From sequence record PQ863255.1: a stretch of DNA of 64,000 nucleotides; one strand, 5' to 3'. A program made the position numbers and the translations under genes. This DNA is from Escherichia phage Ptacy1532. The first letter of the stretch is position 1, and each line of letters starts with the position of its first letter. Below, in pieces: positions 18,786 to 57,850 of the stretch. The notes below the pieces were generated by a model, which saw only the letters and a program-made list of their open reading frames with translations, was not told the origin of the DNA and did no database searches.

Positions 18786-19199
18786 TTATATGAATTTCTG
18801 CATACCTTTGATACGAGGGTTATCATCACCAACTCTCGATTTACAGTAAGCGATAAAAGATTCAGTATTGAGGTTATCCTTTTGAGAACCCCACTGGAGA
18901 TTGTCTGCTCTATTGTTGCTCGGATTATCATCCAGATGCATAACAACAGCGTTAGGAAAAGGTTTCTCACCATGAAAAGTCTCACACACTAAGATATGAA
19001 TCCTTTTCTTAAACTTTCTTTTCCTGTTTACAAACACCATTCTTCCATCTTTCTCTCTATATCCGCTATATGGTTTTCCTACGAAAAGCCTAACTCCACC
19101 ATTATTCGTTATGGCTGTGAAAGGCTTAATCTTAACTCTACCAAAAGATGATACGGAAAGGAAATCATAATAGGGGTGATCTTTCCAGACTTCTTCCAC
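18786..19199 (-). CDS. HNH homing endonuclease
   Basis: HLDDNPSNNRADNLQW HNH motif; free-standing between a terminator and the next gene. Confidence 0.65.
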   Translation of the reverse strand: MEEVWKDHPYYDFLSVSSFGRVKIKPFTAITNNGGVRLFVGKPYSGYREKDGRMVFVNRKRKFKKRIHILVCETFHGEKPFPNAVVMHLDDNPSNNRADNLQWGSQKDNLNTESFIAYCKSRVGDDNPRIKGMQKFI

Positions 19200-19208
19200 T
19201 ATCTATCC

Positions 19209-19955
19209 TCAAAATGGGCTATCGTTGTCGTCTTCGTAAGTAGAAGCAGGCTCTTTATCAATCGTAGGGATTGAAGGAGTAGCTTCTTTCTGTTCTGTTT
19301 CAGAAGCACGAGTAATTTCACGACCAGCCAGAGGCATGTTCTTAGCGTCATTAGCTTGAGTAAGCAGGTTGCGCTGGAACGGGAACATCAGTTGATAGGA
19401 TGCTACGTTCTCATCGGTTTCAGCATACGGTTCGAAGAATACCAGAGGACTACGAGCTTCACCAACTGCTGCACGATATTTGGTTGGGATTGGAGAAATG
19501 GTCTTGATGGAGTTTTTAACTTCACCAGCTTTGTTAGTGTAAGAGTTAACCAGAATGTTAACAGGCTGGCCTAACAGAACATCCTTGAACCAAGACAGAT
19601 CACCTTTCAGTGCTTGAATACTTGGGTCAATCATCTTGCAAAGATCAAGAATACCAGAGTTCTTAGCTCGTGGGTTTACATCATAGCTCTTGAACTGGCA
19701 AGCCGGACGTGGTTCTAATGCCTTACCATCGGAATCTTTACCAGTAGCATCAACACCAATCAGCTCGAAAGCTAAATCCATACGGAAAGCTGGATTCTTA
19801 GGAGTTACTGCTTTGGTCTTCGGGTCAATCCAAGGGTCACGATTGTGAACACCCAAACCTACTACACGAACGATACGTGCTTCGTACTCACCATCAGGGA
19901 TTACATCGTAGTTGGATTTACGGGAAGCAGTTGCGATAGTTGGAATCATAGACAT
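19209..19955 (-). CDS. hypothetical protein with acidic C-terminal tail ending in Phe (T7 gp2.5-like ssDNA-binding protein candidate)
   Basis: C-terminus ...TYEDDNDSPF resembles the acidic, Phe-terminated tail of T7-type SSBs; body not recognisably similar. Confidence 0.35.
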   Translation of the reverse strand: MSMIPTIATASRKSNYDVIPDGEYEARIVRVVGLGVHNRDPWIDPKTKAVTPKNPAFRMDLAFELIGVDATGKDSDGKALEPRPACQFKSYDVNPRAKNSGILDLCKMIDPSIQALKGDLSWFKDVLLGQPVNILVNSYTNKAGEVKNSIKTISPIPTKYRAAVGEARSPLVFFEPYAETDENVASYQLMFPFQRNLLTQANDAKNMPLAGREITRASETEQKEATPSIPTIDKEPASTYEDDNDSPF

Positions 19956-20012
19956 ATTTTAATTTCCTTATTTAATTTGAAAGATTGTTGCTCTCTTTGA
20001 GCGGTTATGTAT

Positions 20013-20023
20013 AGTATACATTA
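20013..20023 (-). promoter_or_regulatory. TAATGTATACT motif about 58 nt upstream of gene 19209..19955 (candidate phage promoter element)
   Basis: Minus strand reads GCGTAATGTATACTATACAT; same core as 26428-26438 and 10217-10225. Confidence 0.35.
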
Positions 20024-20086
20024 CGCTTATACCGATAAGAGTACTATATAATATAAGTATCTTTGGTAGTAGATATAACACACTAG

Positions 20087-20095
20087 TAATGTATA
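20087..20095 (+). promoter_or_regulatory. TAATGTATA motif in plus orientation inside the 415-nt intergenic region (no plus-strand gene nearby)
   Basis: CTAGTAATGTATATATTG; orientation opposite to the flanking genes. Confidence 0.25.
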
Positions 20096-20371
20096 TATTG
20101 TATAGCTGATAAAGTTATTGCAGGCTTGTATATTGGGCAATTCACAGAATCCCTTGCAAGTACCGAAGGGCAGGAGCCACCTGCGAGATAAAAATAGAGA
20201 ATTAAGGAATCCTTGATTTAGGTTGTAGGGACTCCTAGGGACTTTGATTCTCTATTTAAAAGAATATTAATTACTTATTACCTAAATAATTAACTAACTT
20301 ACTTAAACCAAATTCAAGAATAATAGATAAAAAGATTATTCCTAAGAAAGCTAAAAAGTAAAGGATATAAG

Positions 20372-20536
20372 TTACCATTCAAGTAAACCTTTAAAGTTAG
20401 TTTGTTCTACTATCCTCTGATAACGAAGATTAGAATCAGCTTGTTTCTTTAACATCTCATTATATTGATCTCTGATAGAGTCTTTATATACTACAGGTTC
20501 TTTAAATAATGAGATCTTGTTCTTTTCTTCTTTCAT
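20372..20536 (-). CDS. small hypothetical protein
   Basis: Track ORF 20372..20620 trimmed to an internal ATG; start uncertain, overlaps the 3' end of the phosphoesterase gene. Confidence 0.25.
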   Translation of the reverse strand: MKEEKNKISLFKEPVVYKDSIRDQYNEMLKKQADSNLRYQRIVEQTNFKGLLEW

Positions 20537-21005
20537 CAAAGACCTTCCTAATCTCTTGCAGAGAAACAGCTTTATAGTTAATTTGCTCCATTGATGTACA
20601 GAAATATCTCCAATCATCAATTACATGGTTATGAGTATGAGCATAAATATTAAACTTCCCTCTCATCTCGTCAGTGTGAATAGGAATATGAGTTACCCAA
20701 AACTCTTTATATTTATAATCACCAGAGATTCTACGGAATACTTTCATCATATCGGGGAGAAGTTCTAACCTGTCATGGTTCCCCAAGACCAGATGCTTCT
20801 CTCCTTTTACTTCAGCGATGATATCAAGGGCATACTTTTCAAACACCCAATCACCGGTAAAGAAGATTTTATCACGCTTAGTTACATGATCAAATGCAGC
20901 TAGGATTGCTTTGTCATGCTCTTCAATGTTTTTAAATTGCTTACGAAAACTACAGATGTTGCGATGACCTAAGTGACCATCTCCTGCAAAATAAACTTCA
21001 GCCAT
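20502..21005 (-). CDS. calcineurin-like metallophosphoesterase
   Basis: Motifs GDGHLGH, FFTGDWV, LGNHD (D.H / GD / GNHD signature). Confidence 0.65.
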   Translation of the reverse strand: MAEVYFAGDGHLGHRNICSFRKQFKNIEEHDKAILAAFDHVTKRDKIFFTGDWVFEKYALDIIAEVKGEKHLVLGNHDRLELLPDMMKVFRRISGDYKYKEFWVTHIPIHTDEMRGKFNIYAHTHNHVIDDWRYFCTSMEQINYKAVSLQEIRKVFDERRKEQDLII

Positions 21006-21014
21006 AAAGACCTC

Positions 21015-21230
21015 TTAGATAGTGCACCCGTCACAAGTTAAATCGCCTAGAAGGGATAGAGAAAGTAATCTGGATTGCTCATCACTGTATAGTTGATCAA
21101 TCTCTTCTTTAAGTTTTGCCAACTCCATGAAATTGATAAGTTGACCATGTTCAAGACAGTCTGTTTTTAGTATAAACAAAACTTCAGCGTCTGTTGAATC
21201 TTCACTTGAATATTTATCAATGTATTCCAT
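21015..21230 (-). CDS. hypothetical protein
   Basis: 71-aa ORF with AGGAG RBS. Confidence 0.45.
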   Translation of the reverse strand: MEYIDKYSSEDSTDAEVLFILKTDCLEHGQLINFMELAKLKEEIDQLYSDEQSRLLSLSLLGDLTCDGCTI

Positions 21231-21245
21231 TTTTACTCCTATTAA

Positions 21246-21389
21246 TTATGACCAAGATTTAGCTTTCACTTCGACGTATGTTTTAACTTCACCTTTCAAA
21301 ACTTCCTGAGAAGCATTTGCACTTTCCTCAGAGTGATGTACAACGGTGATCTCTTTCTTTCCAATCTTATAAGTGTGAATCCAAATCAT
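21246..21389 (-). CDS. small hypothetical protein (47 aa)
   Basis: ATG overlaps the stop of the upstream gene (ATGA coupling); below track threshold. Confidence 0.25.
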   Translation of the reverse strand: MIWIHTYKIGKKEITVVHHSEESANASQEVLKGEVKTYVEVKAKSWS

Positions 21390-21553
21390 ACTTCTTCCTT
21401 ATATTCCCAATTTCTTTCATAATATCCAGAGTTATAGTTTAGGGCGCACTTCTCGGCCTCTTCTATGTCGTCAGTGTTTAGGATATTTACCCATCCTCCA
21501 ACTTCATCAAAACCTTCCTCTACTTCGTTAAACCATACACTATATTTCTTCAT
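21386..21553 (-). CDS. hypothetical protein
   Basis: Track ORF 21386..21586 trimmed to the internal ATG with GGGGAAG RBS. Confidence 0.4.
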   Translation of the reverse strand: MKKYSVWFNEVEEGFDEVGGWVNILNTDDIEEAEKCALNYNSGYYERNWEYKEEV

Positions 21554-22717: not shown

Positions 22718-24562
22718 TTAGTGCGTATGCATCCAGTTTAGTCCAATCTGACAATCAGAAGCCAGAGGACATTCCATGTTCAAATATTCACCCGCTTTCT
22801 TAACACAAAGCTCAGTGTGTTCTTTGAGTTTCTGTACATCATTACGATTCACTGAGAATTGGCCCTCATCGTGCATATCAATTACCTTAGCACAACGAAC
22901 CCTATCCCTCTCAATCCACTTGTTTAGGAACATCATAGCATATTTCATAACAACAGCACCAGCACATTGCAGGAGAGTGTTAAGTGCTTTATGAACCATA
23001 ACCTTACCAGTGGCATCTCGTCTCATTGTAATCTTACGACCATCAACACCAATCAAGTATCCTTGAGCAGCTTTCTCTGTCATACGATCAATGAGGATTG
23101 CAATACATGGGTTCTCTGCCAAGAAACGTGCTCGCATCACTGAACCTTCGTCAGCCCCACCACCTACAATTGAACCAAGCTTAGCGTCTCCAGCACCGTA
23201 GTTGAATGCATAGATAAACGTTTTAGCATTGTCACGAGTAGGAAGACCAGCAAGTTTCTGGTTGTGGGAGTGGATATCGCCTTCAAGGAGGATATCACGA
23301 TACATAATAGCAGAAGCTAAACCACGTTCTGCCAGAGCTTTCTTAGCTGGATTGTTTTCTTCTATTGCTTCAGCAAGCATATCCCTACACTCTTTAATGA
23401 GGTAGTGAGCGAGCATACGAAGCTCAAGTCCAGAACCATCATACCCTAAGAATACTTCTTTACCAGCGGGTATGTAATATTTGTAAGCACCTACAGGTTT
23501 GTCTTTCTTCCCCGGCTTACCTTTCTCGTAAATTACGTTAGTACCTTTTCGTATATAACAACCATCAGGAACAACGTTAGTAATAACGAAAGGACGAGAA
23601 TGATCACTGTCTGAGTTATAGTCAGACTCAAACAGACTGCGACACTCGTGACCAAACAGACCACGGGAGGGAATATTAACCACGATACGATGTTTGAATC
23701 GAAAAGTCGGAGTAGCGCAGCTGTTAGCTTCTGCCGAAAGTTTACCATCTTCGCGTTCCTTTGCTATGAGTCCACTGATAAGACCTAGCCTGTGAGCCGC
23801 TACAACGCGTCTCTTAAGCAAACTTCCGACACTCCCTAGCTCACCCCCTAGCCCCTCTTCAAGAGTCTCCTCGAGGTTTGTAGGAGCTGTAGGCCACTTG
23901 TTTGATGTGGCTAGTGCTTTCTTAATCTCATCAAACGTTACAGGATTACGACGATTAGGGTTCAATCCCAAACCAAATACGTAAGCCTTCATATAGTTCT
24001 TAGTCTTAAACCTGAAATGCTTTTCTAAGAACTTCTTAATATCAGCGTCAACCATCTCGGCTGTCTGCTTCTGTTTAGTATTGCCTCGCATCCAAGCAGT
24101 GTACCATGCTTGATACGTTCCATACTTTCTCATATCTTTCTTAATTTCGAAAGTATTCCAAGGCTTCTTAGATACATTAAACTCTGGAGGAAGAAAGCCC
24201 TCATCCATAAGAGCTTCTTTAACTCGAGCATCTTTCGATGGGTCAAAGTCTACGTATTCAACACAGGTGAAAGCTCCACCAATATCTTCTCTTTTCAGCC
24301 CAACCCTATCACAATAGGCTTGAGGCCACTTCTGTAAAGCTCCAGACTTCTTAAACGGCTTCATATAAGTAGAGCCGTCTAATCTCATCTTAGGTAAGAG
24401 AGGAATCAACTCTCTGTCAATATTAACAATAATCTCTTTAAGGAGGTGAACATACCACCGAGCATTTCTTCGGTTGAAACTCACTCCGTGCTTTGCTTGC
24501 TTAGAGATTATATCAGCGACAGTCATCTCTGTCAAAAATGGAAGAGCGTCCGGGTTGCTCAC
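22718..24562 (-). CDS. DNA polymerase (family A, T7 gp5-like) polymerase domain
   Basis: SGLELRMLAHYL and GDIHSHNQKLAGLPTRDNAKTFIYAFNYGAGDAKLGSIVGG match T7 DNA polymerase motifs A/B; no 3'-5' exonuclease domain in this ORF. Confidence 0.9.
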   Translation of the reverse strand: MSNPDALPFLTEMTVADIISKQAKHGVSFNRRNARWYVHLLKEIIVNIDRELIPLLPKMRLDGSTYMKPFKKSGALQKWPQAYCDRVGLKREDIGGAFTCVEYVDFDPSKDARVKEALMDEGFLPPEFNVSKKPWNTFEIKKDMRKYGTYQAWYTAWMRGNTKQKQTAEMVDADIKKFLEKHFRFKTKNYMKAYVFGLGLNPNRRNPVTFDEIKKALATSNKWPTAPTNLEETLEEGLGGELGSVGSLLKRRVVAAHRLGLISGLIAKEREDGKLSAEANSCATPTFRFKHRIVVNIPSRGLFGHECRSLFESDYNSDSDHSRPFVITNVVPDGCYIRKGTNVIYEKGKPGKKDKPVGAYKYYIPAGKEVFLGYDGSGLELRMLAHYLIKECRDMLAEAIEENNPAKKALAERGLASAIMYRDILLEGDIHSHNQKLAGLPTRDNAKTFIYAFNYGAGDAKLGSIVGGGADEGSVMRARFLAENPCIAILIDRMTEKAAQGYLIGVDGRKITMRRDATGKVMVHKALNTLLQCAGAVVMKYAMMFLNKWIERDRVRCAKVIDMHDEGQFSVNRNDVQKLKEHTELCVKKAGEYLNMECPLASDCQIGLNWMHTH

Positions 24563-26447: not shown

Positions 26448-26615
26448 TTAAAACTCTGCTAAGTACTTAATATCAGAGGCATATACCTCATCAAAGGAAA
26501 TAACTTCCCCGTTGTAAAGAAGCTCTATTTTCAGTATACCAGAGCATTTGGTGTCTTTAGAGTCAACTCTGATAGAGAGTTTATCAACTATATGAGCTTT
26601 AATCTCTTCTATCAT
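26448..26615 (-). CDS. hypothetical protein
   Basis: Track ORF 26448..26696 trimmed to an internal start; exact start uncertain. Confidence 0.35.
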   Translation of the reverse strand: MIEEIKAHIVDKLSIRVDSKDTKCSGILKIELLYNGEVISFDEVYASDIKYLAEF

Positions 26616-26628
26616 TAACTCTTGAGTA

Positions 26629-26814
26629 TTACTCACTCCACCCTCCCGGTGGTACAAAATCATCAGGAACGTCAATGATAGTAGGTTCTCCATCATTCAT
26701 GCAGGTGTCTTCATTGAACTCTTCACACTCAAAACATGCTCGTTCGATATTTTTGTAGAAGTCGATGGTTGCTGAACCATCACCACAATCTCGGATAACT
26801 AAAGCGACTTTCAT
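26629..26814 (-). CDS. Cys-containing acidic hypothetical protein
   Basis: ATG overlaps the phoH stop (ATGA). Confidence 0.4.
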   Translation of the reverse strand: MKVALVIRDCGDGSATIDFYKNIERACFECEEFNEDTCMNDGEPTIIDVPDDFVPPGGWSE

Positions 26815-51764: not shown

Positions 51765-51839
51765 TGGCGTTCCCTCGTGGAATCGAACCACGAATAAGAG
51801 CTTAGAAGGCTCCAGTTATATCCGTTTAACTAAGGGAAC
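51765..51839 (-). tRNA. tRNA-Arg (anticodon UCU)
   Basis: Cloverleaf folded by hand: acceptor GTTCCCT/AGGGAAC, D-stem GTTA/TAAC, anticodon stem GGAGC/GCTCT with loop CTTCTAA, T-arm CGTGG-TTCGATT-CCACG, encoded CCA. Confidence 0.8.
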
Positions 51840-55333: not shown

Positions 55334-55619
55334 TGTTAATCTCCTGCTGCTTAGCAATAGCCACTCGCAAATCTTCATTAGCACGAGTGAGGCGCAATAC
55401 TTCATGATTGAGGCTCTGAAGACGCTTGTTTCTGTCTTCAACTTGCATAATAAGATCGTTAAGTGTTACTTTAACTTTCTCATTATACATCTCATCCACT
55501 CGGACTAGAGATTTATACATTCTTTCCCAGCTTGCTGCTTTGTTTCTGAGAACAATAAATCCTATAACGCTGATAGTTAAACAGCTTACAAAAAGGAATT
55601 TATATACTTCTAAAGTCAT
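55323..55619 (-). CDS. membrane-anchored coiled-coil protein
   Basis: N-terminal TM helix FLFVSCLTISVIGFIVL followed by heptad-like charged helix. Confidence 0.45.
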   Translation of the reverse strand: MTLEVYKFLFVSCLTISVIGFIVLRNKAASWERMYKSLVRVDEMYNEKVKVTLNDLIMQVEDRNKRLQSLNHEVLRLTRANEDLRVAIAKQQEINSES

Positions 55620-55819
55620 ATCATTTTACCCTTTATCAGAGATTAAAAGTAATATTATTTAAGTAAGTTAAATTTAGTAAACTTATTTTCTAAGAAATTT
55701 TCAAAGGGTCTATATACAGAGCATTACCCATAGTCCCAGAATACTACCATCTTTTTCAATAAATTTACTAAGTGGTTGGTTTATAAAGGAATTTAGTTTG
55801 TCAAATCTGGCACTAGTGA

Positions 55820-57811: not shown

Positions 57812-57850
57812 TGATAAAAGAAAAGGCGCTACCCGTTAAGGTAGCGCCTT
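57812..57850 (-). terminator. Rho-independent terminator
   Basis: 11-bp stem AAGGCGCTACC/GGTAGCGCCTT with 6-nt loop, followed by TTTTCTTTTAT on the minus strand. Confidence 0.55.

What the first reader, a model, noticed from the sequence alone, without database searches (positions are those of the whole stretch)
20191..20259. Perfect 11-bp inverted repeat in the 415-nt intergenic region between the phosphoesterase and SSB-like genes
AAATAGAGAAT ... ATTCTCTATTT flank about 45 nt that themselves contain a TAGGGACT direct repeat. The same region holds two oppositely oriented TAATGTATA motifs. A stable hairpin here could be a terminator or attenuator between transcription units, an RNase III site or a regulator-binding palindrome.
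Basis: seen in the sequence. Interest (0 to 1): 0.4.

Follow-up and report, generated by a model that had tools for sequence, protein, structure and literature searches.

The report
Hairpin closing an unannotated phage RNA
The inverted repeat is real and is most likely the 3' stem-loop of a conserved, unannotated ~158-nt non-coding RNA of phiEco32-like coliphages, made from a seventh phage-sigma promoter that fires against the neighbouring genes; the same hairpin probably also stops or processes the oncoming gene transcript.

Summary
The window is a Kuravirus (phiEco32-like coliphage). The 11-bp perfect inverted repeat exists at 20192-20202/20247-20257. A repeat this long arises in 2% of shuffles, and only two occur in 64 kb.

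The "TAATGTATA motifs" are the published promoter element of the phage sigma factor gp36. The minus-strand copy is the known middle promoter P40. The plus-strand copy is not in the published list of six. It carries the same upstream element at the same spacing as the structurally characterised promoter P68, and it is conserved as a promoter footprint in all 27 relatives aligned.

It predicts a start at A20102 and a non-coding transcript with four parts:
- a 5' hairpin, with compensatory changes
- a swappable middle domain, in two unrelated versions
- a GCAGG/CCUGC hairpin
- the finding's hairpin, where cross-phage homology stops

The 3' module is 91-100% identical in phages whose SSB-like gene is only 63-66% identical at third codon positions. 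No Rfam family matches, the E. coli host has nothing similar, and no record annotates it.

The hairpin is unlike this phage's canonical terminators, so termination is inferred rather than shown. The genome's most AT-rich stretch follows it, which leaves a replication-origin role open. RNA function is unknown and expression is untested.

The parts
20015..20023 (-). TAATGTATA element of the known gp36-dependent middle promoter P40. It drives the SSB-like gene (19955..19209). Predicted start is about A20008.
   Evidence: The sequence aagcgtaatgtatactatacataaccgctcaaagagagcaa is the SU10 'middle promoter between CDS37 and CDS38' (PMC4281155 Table S2). P40 is listed among the six experimentally identified phiEco32 promoters (PMC8948821).
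20063..20097 (+). Candidate seventh gp36 promoter, P(+): TTGGTAGTAGATAT - 10 nt - TAATGTATATA. It fires opposite to the middle genes.
   Evidence: It has the same 14-nt upstream element and the same 10-nt spacer length as P68 (window 31970..31936). It carries the -37G, -34A and -14A..-11G positions that the P68 cryo-EM and mutagenesis study found essential (PMC12276001; mapping those positions onto this sequence is my inference). GGTAGTA and TAATGTATATA are conserved while the spacer varies freely in 27 phages. It is absent from the published promoter lists.
20102..20259 (+). Predicted non-coding RNA of about 158 nt (type A version). It contains no AUG or GUG.
   Evidence: The start is inferred from the published rule of 6-8 nt after the element, with -11G at 20091. 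Consensus fold energy is -40.7 kcal/mol on + versus -29.2 on -. Rfam gives no hit. No record annotates an RNA here.
20102..20118 (+). H1, the 5'-terminal hairpin AUAGCU-GAUAA-AGUUAU, beginning at the predicted +1.
   Evidence: Compensatory changes are seen among phages: U-A to G-C, and C-G to A-U or U-A. G-C also alternates with G.U, which would be an A.C mismatch on the - strand. Two pairs change on both sides, against 0.4 expected.
20119..20169 (+). H2, the variable middle domain. The window has type A, with helices 20124-20130/20155-20161 and 20135-37/20151-53. Other phages carry an unrelated type B that is about 26 nt longer.
   Evidence: Type B occurs in ECBP2, MN05, ES17, EcP-vB and five metagenome contigs. 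Type B folds into its own two-hairpin domain with one compensatory pair.
20170..20184 (+). H3, the hairpin GCAGG-AGCCA-CCUGC.
   Evidence: The stem is invariant and the loop is AGCCA or AGACA in all members.
20192..20257 (+). H4, the finding's hairpin. The perfect stem is 11 bp (16 bp with G.U on the + strand). The 44-nt interior holds AAGGAAUCCUU and the two UAGGGACU repeats.
   Evidence: It is 91-100% identical across Kuravirus and Suseptimavirus. There are two interior variants, and both repeat copies lose a G together: AGGGACU x2 versus AGGACU x2. The flanks are GAUAAAAAU on the 5' side and UUUAAAAG on the 3' side, so the - strand reads hairpin + UAUUUUUAUCUC.
20258..20400 (.). AT-rich tract directly after the hairpin. 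It overlaps the 35-aa hydrophobic ORF at 20271-20378 on the - strand.
   Evidence: This is the lowest-GC 100-nt window (17%, starting at 20241) and 150-nt window (20%, starting at 20254) in the 64 kb. The first 60 nt after the hairpin are 17-22% GC in every lineage, even where that sequence is not homologous.

Best explanation
The inverted repeat is the 3'-terminal stem-loop (H4) of a small, structured, non-coding RNA gene of Kuravirus and Suseptimavirus phages that has not been annotated.

Proposed mechanism:
- In the middle phase of infection, host RNA polymerase carrying the phage sigma factor gp36 (helped by gp79) recognises a P68-type promoter at 20063-20097 on the + strand. It starts at about A20102.
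- The resulting ~158-nt RNA begins with a protective 5' hairpin (H1). It then carries an exchangeable middle domain (H2), a short GC hairpin (H3), and ends in H4.
- H4, flanked by an A-run and a T-run, sets the 3' end of this RNA, either by weak intrinsic termination or by blocking 3' exonucleases. This keeps the backward-firing polymerase out of the middle genes.
- Read on the other strand, H4 stops or processes the converging gene 42-41 transcript ahead of promoter P40.
- The near-invariant sequence of H3-H4 implies a sequence-specific partner, which is still unknown.

Shown here: the repeat, the promoter match, the conservation pattern, the covariation in H1, the lack of coding potential, and the absence of any known family.

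Inferred: that the promoter fires, where the RNA ends, and what the RNA does.
For: 1. TAATGTATA is the published gp36 promoter element, with starts 6-8 nt downstream (PMC4281155, PMC8948821).
2. The + strand copy shares TTGGTAGTAGATAT-N10-(T/A)AATGTATATA with P68, including the positions that structural work showed to be contacted.
3. It shows a promoter footprint: both elements are invariant and the spacer is free in 27 phages.
4. In every variant, H1 begins exactly at the predicted +1 and carries compensatory substitutions.
5. The consensus fold is 8-11 kcal/mol better on the + strand, and H1 is lost on the - strand.
6. The middle domain exists in two unrelated versions inside the same H1/H3/H4 frame.
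7. In divergent phages, H3 is 96-100% and H4 91-100% identical, while third codon positions of the adjacent gene are 63-66% identical and the promoter regions 76-80%.
8. Cross-phage homology ends at about 20260 in many relatives, right after H4.
9. There is no AUG or GUG, and no conserved ORF on either strand.
10. No other terminator-like site exists on the + strand for more than 2 kb downstream.
11. Local GC skew is positive only over 20050-20260, inside a region of negative skew.
Against: - No expression data were available, and the key primary paper (Pavlova 2012) could not be read.
- H4 itself is invariant, so it offers no covariation for or against.
- The two informative single substitutions in H4 point to opposite strands: L022 favours + and L024 favours -.
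- The z-scores of single-sequence folds are equal on both strands, at -2.5.
- The + strand tail after H4 (UAUUUAAAAG, or UAUUAAAAUC in other phages) is a poor U-tract, whereas the - strand tail (UAUUUUUAUCUC) is invariant and better.
- The hairpin fails the terminator consensus scan.
- Some of the conservation could reflect recent recombination of a mosaic block. For example, 4E8 and SU7 are also near-identical across the adjacent gene 41.
- No target or partner was found.
Confidence: 0.5

Rival explanations
1. The hairpin is only the intrinsic terminator, or 3'-end stabiliser, of the upstream - strand middle operon (genes 42-41). The + strand promoter-like site is silent or incidental.
For: The hairpin begins 13 nt after the stop codon of the 35-aa gene, or about 30 nt after the phosphoesterase stop in phages that lack that gene. 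The - strand reads stem + UAUUUUUAUCUC, and this tail is invariant. The known promoter P40 follows, giving a terminator-then-promoter layout as at 22154-22092.
Against: The phage's real terminators are compact, GC-rich tetraloop or hexaloop hairpins followed by U5-6 (18763-18746, 22154-22139, 57850-57823). This one has an AU-rich base and a 44-nt interior, and it is not called by the scan. A terminator does not need an invariant 44-nt interior, nor the conserved H1-H3 and promoter footprint lying 90-190 nt downstream of it.
Confidence: 0.2
2. The whole block is a transcription-activated origin of DNA replication. A middle promoter fires through a conserved structured region, with direct and inverted repeats, into a DNA-unwinding AT-rich tract. 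The transcript opens or primes the origin. The hairpin is then an origin element or the 3' end of the primer.
For: It is the only gp36-type promoter in the window that points against its gene cluster. It is followed by the most AT-rich 100-150 nt of the 64 kb, and that AT-richness is kept across non-homologous downstream sequences. It lies among replication genes: the SSB-like gene is adjacent and the DNA polymerase is 2.5 kb away. It contains 8-bp direct repeats 10 bp apart plus an 11-bp inverted repeat. From my own knowledge, precedents are the T7 primary origin (promoters 1.1A/B + AT-rich region), T4 oriF/oriG (middle promoter + unwinding element) and ColE1 RNA II.
Against: There is no shift in cumulative GC skew at 20 kb. 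The repeat spacing changes from 10 to 9 bp in one variant. The AT-rich tract is partly a small coding gene. H1 covariation argues for selection at the RNA level, although that is compatible with a primer RNA. No origin has been reported for this phage group in the searchable literature.
Confidence: 0.17
3. The hairpin is an RNase III processing site in the polycistronic middle transcript, or in the duplex formed by the converging + and - transcripts. This would resemble the intergenic RNase III hairpins of T7.
For: On the - strand it folds as an 11-bp lower stem, an internal loop, an 8-bp upper stem and a loop. On the + strand it folds as a 16-bp stem plus 3-4 bp inner helices. It sits between cistrons. 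If both strands are transcribed, a perfect duplex would form.
Against: No sequence or structure test for RNase III sites is available here. This idea does not explain the conserved promoter, H1-H3, or the invariance of the interior sequence.
Confidence: 0.08
4. The repeat acts as a palindromic DNA operator for a phage or host regulator that controls the divergent promoters.
For: It has perfect symmetric 11-bp arms, is strictly conserved in sequence, and lies near two promoters.
Against: The arms are 44 bp apart, which is far for a dimeric operator. They lie 95-230 bp from the promoters. The conserved interior is not symmetric. No regulator gene is associated with it.
Confidence: 0.04

Closest known systems
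phiEco32 gp36-dependent middle promoter P68
   Same: Both have TTGGTAGTAGATAT, a 10-nt spacer, and (T/A)AATGTATATA. They share the same -37G, -34A and -14..-11 AATG register.
   Different: This one points opposite to the middle and early genes, has no ORF downstream, and is not among the six published promoters. Its activity has not been tested.
Lambda OOP RNA and P22 sar RNA (short phage RNAs made against the flow of neighbouring genes and ending in a hairpin). This comparison is from my own knowledge.
   Same: Each is a small non-coding transcript with its own promoter, converging on a protein-coding transcript and ending at a stem-loop. OOP also lies beside the replication genes.
   Different: This RNA is about twice as long and has four helices. 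No sequence or Rfam relationship was found. If it ends at H4, it overlaps only the 3' untranslated end of the opposing mRNA. It depends on a phage sigma factor.
Bidirectional intrinsic terminators
   Same: A hairpin flanked by an A-run on one side and a T-run on the other, placed between converging transcription units.
   Different: It has a 44-nt structured interior and an AU-rich stem base. It fails the simple consensus scan, and its U-tract on the + strand is poor.
Transcription-dependent phage origins: the T7 primary origin and T4 oriF/oriG. This comparison is from my own knowledge.
   Same: A phage-specific promoter is directed into an AT-rich unwinding region among replication genes.
   Different: About 158 nt of conserved, structured, GC-normal sequence lies between the promoter and the AT-rich tract. 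There is no evidence of initiation here.
T7 intergenic RNase III hairpins. This comparison is from my own knowledge.
   Same: An interrupted stem of about 19-20 bp lying between cistrons.
   Different: No cleavage data exist, and the flanking promoter and helices have no counterpart in T7.

Membership tests
gp36 (phiEco32 sigma) promoter | Element tAATGTAtA, with A-14 A-13 T-12 G-11 | tested here: met
   TAATGTATATA at 20087-20097 is an exact match. Consensus is taken from PMC8948821 and PMC12276001.
gp36 (phiEco32 sigma) promoter | Upstream region contacted by the gp36 C-terminal domain (-37G, -34A in P68) | tested here: met
   TTGGTAGTAGATAT at 20063-20076 is in the same register as P68. Mapping the published positions onto this sequence is my inference.
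gp36 (phiEco32 sigma) promoter | Conserved as a promoter footprint in relatives | tested here: met
   Both elements are invariant and the spacer is variable in 27 phages. One metagenome contig has TAATATATA instead.
gp36 (phiEco32 sigma) promoter | Transcription start 6-8 nt downstream, dependent on the gp36 holoenzyme | not testable with these tools
   This needs primer extension or in vitro transcription.
Intrinsic (Rho-independent) terminator | Compact GC-rich stem with a loop of 3-8 nt | tested here: not met
   The stem base is AU-rich and the interior is 44 nt. The scan finds no site in 19000-21500. The phage's canonical terminators look different.
Intrinsic (Rho-independent) terminator | U-rich tract directly after the stem | tested here: inconclusive
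   The - strand tail is UAUUUUUAUCUC and is invariant. The + strand tail is UAUUUAAAAG or UAUUAAAAUC, which is weak.
Intrinsic (Rho-independent) terminator | Located at the end of a transcription unit | tested here: met
   It lies 13 nt after the stop codon of the 35-aa gene on the - strand, and at the end of the predicted RNA on the + strand.
Any Rfam 15 RNA family | Covariance-model match | tested here: not met
   No hit in the region at E up to 10, in the window or in the type B and insertion variants.
Structured non-coding RNA gene | Base pairs supported by compensatory substitutions | tested here: inconclusive
   H1 has 2 pairs changed on both sides, and type B H2 has 1. H2 type A, H3 and H4 never vary, so they say nothing either way.
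Structured non-coding RNA gene | No conserved coding potential | tested here: met
   There is no AUG or GUG on the + strand. The short ORFs on either strand are not kept between type A and type B.
Structured non-coding RNA gene | Detected transcript | not testable with these tools
   No RNA-seq of a Kuravirus was found in the literature library.
Hfq-type trans-acting sRNA | 3' terminator hairpin followed by a poly-U tail | tested here: not met
   The + strand tail has at most three consecutive U.
Transcription-activated phage replication origin | Promoter directed into an AT-rich unwinding region | tested here: met
   The lowest-GC 100- and 150-nt windows of the 64 kb start at 20241 and 20254. 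The property is conserved across lineages.
Transcription-activated phage replication origin | Replication initiates here | not testable with these tools
   This needs marker-frequency analysis or 2D gels. GC skew is uninformative.
RNase III processing hairpin | Cleavage by RNase III | not testable with these tools
   Only the general shape (an interrupted stem of about 19-20 bp) is compatible.

The most novel reading that the evidence does not exclude
The block from P(+) through H1-H4 to the AT-rich tract is the phage's origin of DNA replication. The gp36-dependent transcript, folded by its conserved helices and ending at the finding's hairpin on the edge of the genome's most AT-rich segment, would open or prime the origin. 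This would be a sigma-factor-gated, RNA-primed origin in a phage group whose origin is unknown.
Probability: 0.17. Interest if true: 0.7.

Novelty: new member of a known kind. Interest (0 to 1): 0.5.

Why it matters
phiEco32 is the model for a phage that brings its own sigma factor (gp36) and a co-factor (gp79), and its transcription map is taken to be six promoters, all serving protein genes.

A seventh promoter, of the best-characterised P68 type, firing backwards into a conserved structured RNA would change that picture:
- It adds a non-coding product to the gp36 regulon.
- It provides a new candidate RNA family confined to Kuravirus and Suseptimavirus. These phages are used in therapy collections such as SU10, ES17 and the BASEL phages.
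- It marks a compact, testable locus that may control how converging transcription ends, or where DNA replication starts.
- It flags about 160 nt that roughly 100 deposited genomes leave unannotated or cover with spurious small ORFs.

Tried and rejected
- Rfam scans of the window region and of variant loci found nothing in the element.
- tRNA/tmRNA scan found only an unrelated tRNA-Arg.
- blastn of the RNA against 5,426 E. coli genomes gave no match, so there is no host homologue or long antisense target.
- Exact-pattern scans of IMG/VR, JGI metagenomes and GTDB genomes found only Kuravirus-like contigs plus chance hits.
- A covariance model of H3+H4 was searched against 20-40 kb around the SSB-like gene of GAP52, 7-11, LAh_8, Privateer, Vp_R1 and three intermediate metagenomic relatives. 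It found no homologue. One weak hit in the window (26566-26644) lies inside a coding ORF and was dismissed.
- The intermediate relatives (67-70% SSB identity) have a short, different upstream region and no TAATGTATA promoters.
- A search for targets within the phage, by reverse-complement k-mers and by duplex energies at 159 translation start regions, gave nothing above shuffled controls.
- The strand could not be decided from single-sequence folding z-scores, which are equal at -2.5. The large excess of G.U pairs on the + strand is partly built in, because the structure was predicted on that strand. I therefore relied on independent consensus folds of each strand instead.
- A small protein encoded in the region was rejected: there is no AUG or GUG, and the ORFs are not conserved between the domain types.
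- A CsrA-sponge idea (4 GGA motifs in 95 nt, and the paired loss of a G in both repeats) was considered but could not be tested, and it is only weakly above chance.
- The Pavlova 2012 and Savalia 2008 papers could not be opened.
- Literature searches for Kuravirus RNA-seq, small RNAs or a replication origin returned nothing relevant.

Full report
**Identity of the window**

The 2.5 kb around the finding is 99.8% identical to Escherichia phage vB_EcoP_WFI101126 and 96-98% identical to SU10, phiEco32 and NJ01. All are Kuravirus. Genes here run on the - strand. RefSeq annotation of the near-identical record places these features on the - strand:
- a conserved phi32_40 homologue at 19209-19955, annotated as a single-strand DNA-binding protein in some records
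- a 35-aa hydrophobic ORF at 20271-20378
- a 54-aa ORF at 20372-20536
- the phosphoesterase at 20502-21005

The non-coding gap is therefore 315 nt (19956-20270), not 415 nt.

**The observation**

The perfect 11-bp inverted repeat is at 20192-20202 and 20247-20257. The TAGGGACT repeats are at 20226-33 and 20236-43. The opposed TAATGTATA copies are at 20015-23 (-) and 20087-95 (+).

A perfect repeat this long, with a loop of 60 nt or less, arises in 2% of dinucleotide shuffles of the region. It occurs only twice in 64 kb. As RNA the hairpin folds at -23.5 kcal/mol on the + strand, where G.U pairs extend the stem to 16 bp, and at -18.2 kcal/mol on the - strand.

**What the TAATGTATA motifs are**

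The literature identifies tAATGTAtA as the single conserved element of promoters read by host RNA polymerase carrying the phage sigma factor gp36. Starts lie 6-8 nt downstream. Six such promoters (P6, P13, P26, P40, P58, P68) have been identified experimentally (PMC4281155, PMC8948821).

The - strand copy, with its flanks, is exactly the SU10 middle promoter 'between CDS37 and CDS38', which is P40.

The + strand copy is not in those lists, yet it is the better match. TTGGTAGTAGATAT-N10-TAATGTATATA (20063-20097) repeats the 14-nt upstream element and the spacer length of P68 (window 31970..31936). The 2025 cryo-EM and mutagenesis study of P68 showed that gp36 contacts -14A to -11G, and that -37G and -34A are essential (PMC12276001). 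When I map that register onto the + strand site, all of these bases are present.

Across 27 Kuravirus and Suseptimavirus sequences, GGTAGTA and TAATGTATATA are invariant while the spacer differs at almost every position. That is the pattern expected of a working promoter.

**What lies downstream of that promoter**

With -11G at 20091, the start is A20102. From there to the end of the finding's hairpin is 158 nt with no AUG or GUG and no ORF conserved between variants.

RNAalifold on 13 distinct type A sequences gives four helices:
- H1 (20102-07/20113-18) begins at +1 in every variant. It carries two pairs changed on both sides, plus a G-C/G.U alternation.
- H2 is a hairpin domain.
- H3 is GCAGG/CCUGC (20170-84).
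- H4 is the finding's hairpin.

In ECBP2, MN05, ES17, EcP-vB and several metagenome contigs, H2 is replaced by an unrelated domain about 26 nt longer. That domain folds on its own and has one compensatory pair. H1, H3 and H4 stay in place.

Independent consensus folds of the two strands give these energies:

| Alignment | + strand (kcal/mol) | - strand (kcal/mol) |
|---|---|---|
| Type A, full length | -40.7 | -29.2 |
| Type B, full length | -48.4 | -40.3 |
| H3+H4 only | -26.7 | -23.7 |

H1 disappears on the - strand. For H3+H4 alone the strands are nearly equal. Single-sequence z-scores do not separate the strands. So the 5' half argues for a + strand RNA, while the finding's hairpin itself is strand-symmetric.

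**Conservation**

Compare the window with Suseptimavirus-type phages:

| Segment | Identity to the window |
|---|---|
| Third codon positions of the adjacent gene | 63-66% |
| The two promoter regions | 76-80% |
| H3 | 96-100% |
| H4 | 91-100% |

By my estimate, that level of identity over 93 nt is very unlikely under the neutral rate seen next door. Some recombination of mosaic blocks clearly also occurs: the H1, H2 and H4 variants and the downstream sequences are reassorted among phages.

Cross-phage homology stops at about 20260 in many relatives, right after the hairpin. The two TAGGGACT copies change together to AGGACT in one variant. That points to a shared partner rather than to pairing with each other.

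**Is the hairpin a terminator?**

Its position fits on both strands, and it is flanked by A5 and a T-run. But the consensus scan finds no terminator here. The phage's clear terminators are compact GC-rich hairpins followed by U5-6: 18763-18746, 22154-22139 and 57850-57823.

The - strand tail (UAUUUUUAUCUC) is invariant and reasonable. The + strand tail (UAUUUAAAAG or UAUUAAAAUC) is weak. No other terminator-like site exists on the + strand for more than 2 kb.

I therefore regard H4 as the structure that defines the RNA's 3' end, by weak termination or by blocking exonucleases. It probably also stops or processes the converging mRNA. Neither role is demonstrated.

**Distribution and known families**

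- Rfam gives no hit.
- Complete E. coli genomes contain nothing similar.
- No deposited record annotates an RNA here. A few place small hypothetical ORFs over it.
- Pattern scans of IMG/VR, JGI metagenomes and GTDB recover only Kuravirus-like contigs.
- A covariance model of H3+H4 finds nothing around the homologous gene in more distant relatives. Those relatives also lack TAATGTATA promoters.
- No convincing base-pairing target was found in the phage.

**An unexpected neighbour**

The 100-nt and 150-nt windows with the lowest GC in the whole 64 kb (17% and 20%) begin at 20241 and 20254, directly after the hairpin. The first 60 nt after the hairpin are 17-22% GC in every lineage, including those where this sequence is unrelated.

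A lone middle promoter firing against its gene cluster, through a conserved repeat-bearing region, into the genome's most AT-rich tract, among replication genes, resembles transcription-activated phage origins such as the T7 primary origin and T4 oriF/oriG (from my own knowledge). GC skew gives no support, and nothing in the searchable literature addresses an origin in this group. I keep this as the main alternative and the most novel reading.

**Verdict**

The most likely account (confidence about 0.5) is that the hairpin is the conserved 3' stem-loop of an unannotated, gp36-driven, ~158-nt non-coding RNA specific to Kuravirus and Suseptimavirus, and that it doubles as a two-way transcript boundary.

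In kind this is a new member of a known class: phage small RNAs with their own promoter and terminal hairpin, made against the flow of neighbouring genes. Its function is unknown, and expression has yet to be shown.

Noticed in passing
window 20241-20403: This is the lowest-GC 100-nt (17%) and 150-nt (20%) stretch of the whole 64-kb window, directly after the hairpin. The AT-richness is kept in relatives whose sequence here is not homologous.
   Followed up: partly
window 55600-55760 (- strand): This is the second most AT-rich stretch of the window. Just upstream on the - strand, ATGGTAGTAT-N..-TAATGCTCT has the same GGTAGTA-N15-TAATG spacing as the P68-type promoters, so it may be a further, weaker gp36-type promoter.
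   Followed up: no
window 57823-57850 (- strand): The only other perfect 11-bp inverted repeat in the window: AAGGCGCUACC-UUAACG-GGUAGCGCCUU followed by UUCUUUUAUC. This is a canonical intrinsic terminator in the early region.
   Followed up: partly
window 18786-19199 (- strand): An HNH homing-endonuclease ORF lies next to the SSB-like gene. It is absent from most relatives, whose blast coverage starts only after it, so it is a variable mobile insertion.
   Followed up: no
L021 (ES17) 620-770; also L004, L023, L076-L081: An insertion of about 146 nt lies between P40 and the + strand promoter in ES17-type phages, annotated with a 47-aa ORF. These phages also carry the type B middle domain of the RNA.
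   Followed up: partly
window 24507-24535 (- strand): A perfect sigma-70 consensus (TTGACA-17-TATAAT with a TG extension) lies inside the 5' end of the 614-aa DNA polymerase ORF as listed. Either this is an internal promoter or the true start codon is further downstream.
   Followed up: no
window 20004-20024: TTATGTATA on the + strand abuts P40's TAATGTATA on the - strand, forming a near-palindrome of the promoter element. It is not conserved in Suseptimavirus.
   Followed up: partly
window 51765-51839 (- strand): A tRNA-Arg (anticodon TCT) gene.
   Followed up: no
window 20226-20243 and relatives: The two TAGGGACT copies lose one G together in one lineage (AGGACT x2). With AAGGAA and CAGGAG nearby, the 3' module holds four GGA motifs in 95 nt. 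A GGA-binding protein such as CsrA is a speculative partner.
   Followed up: no
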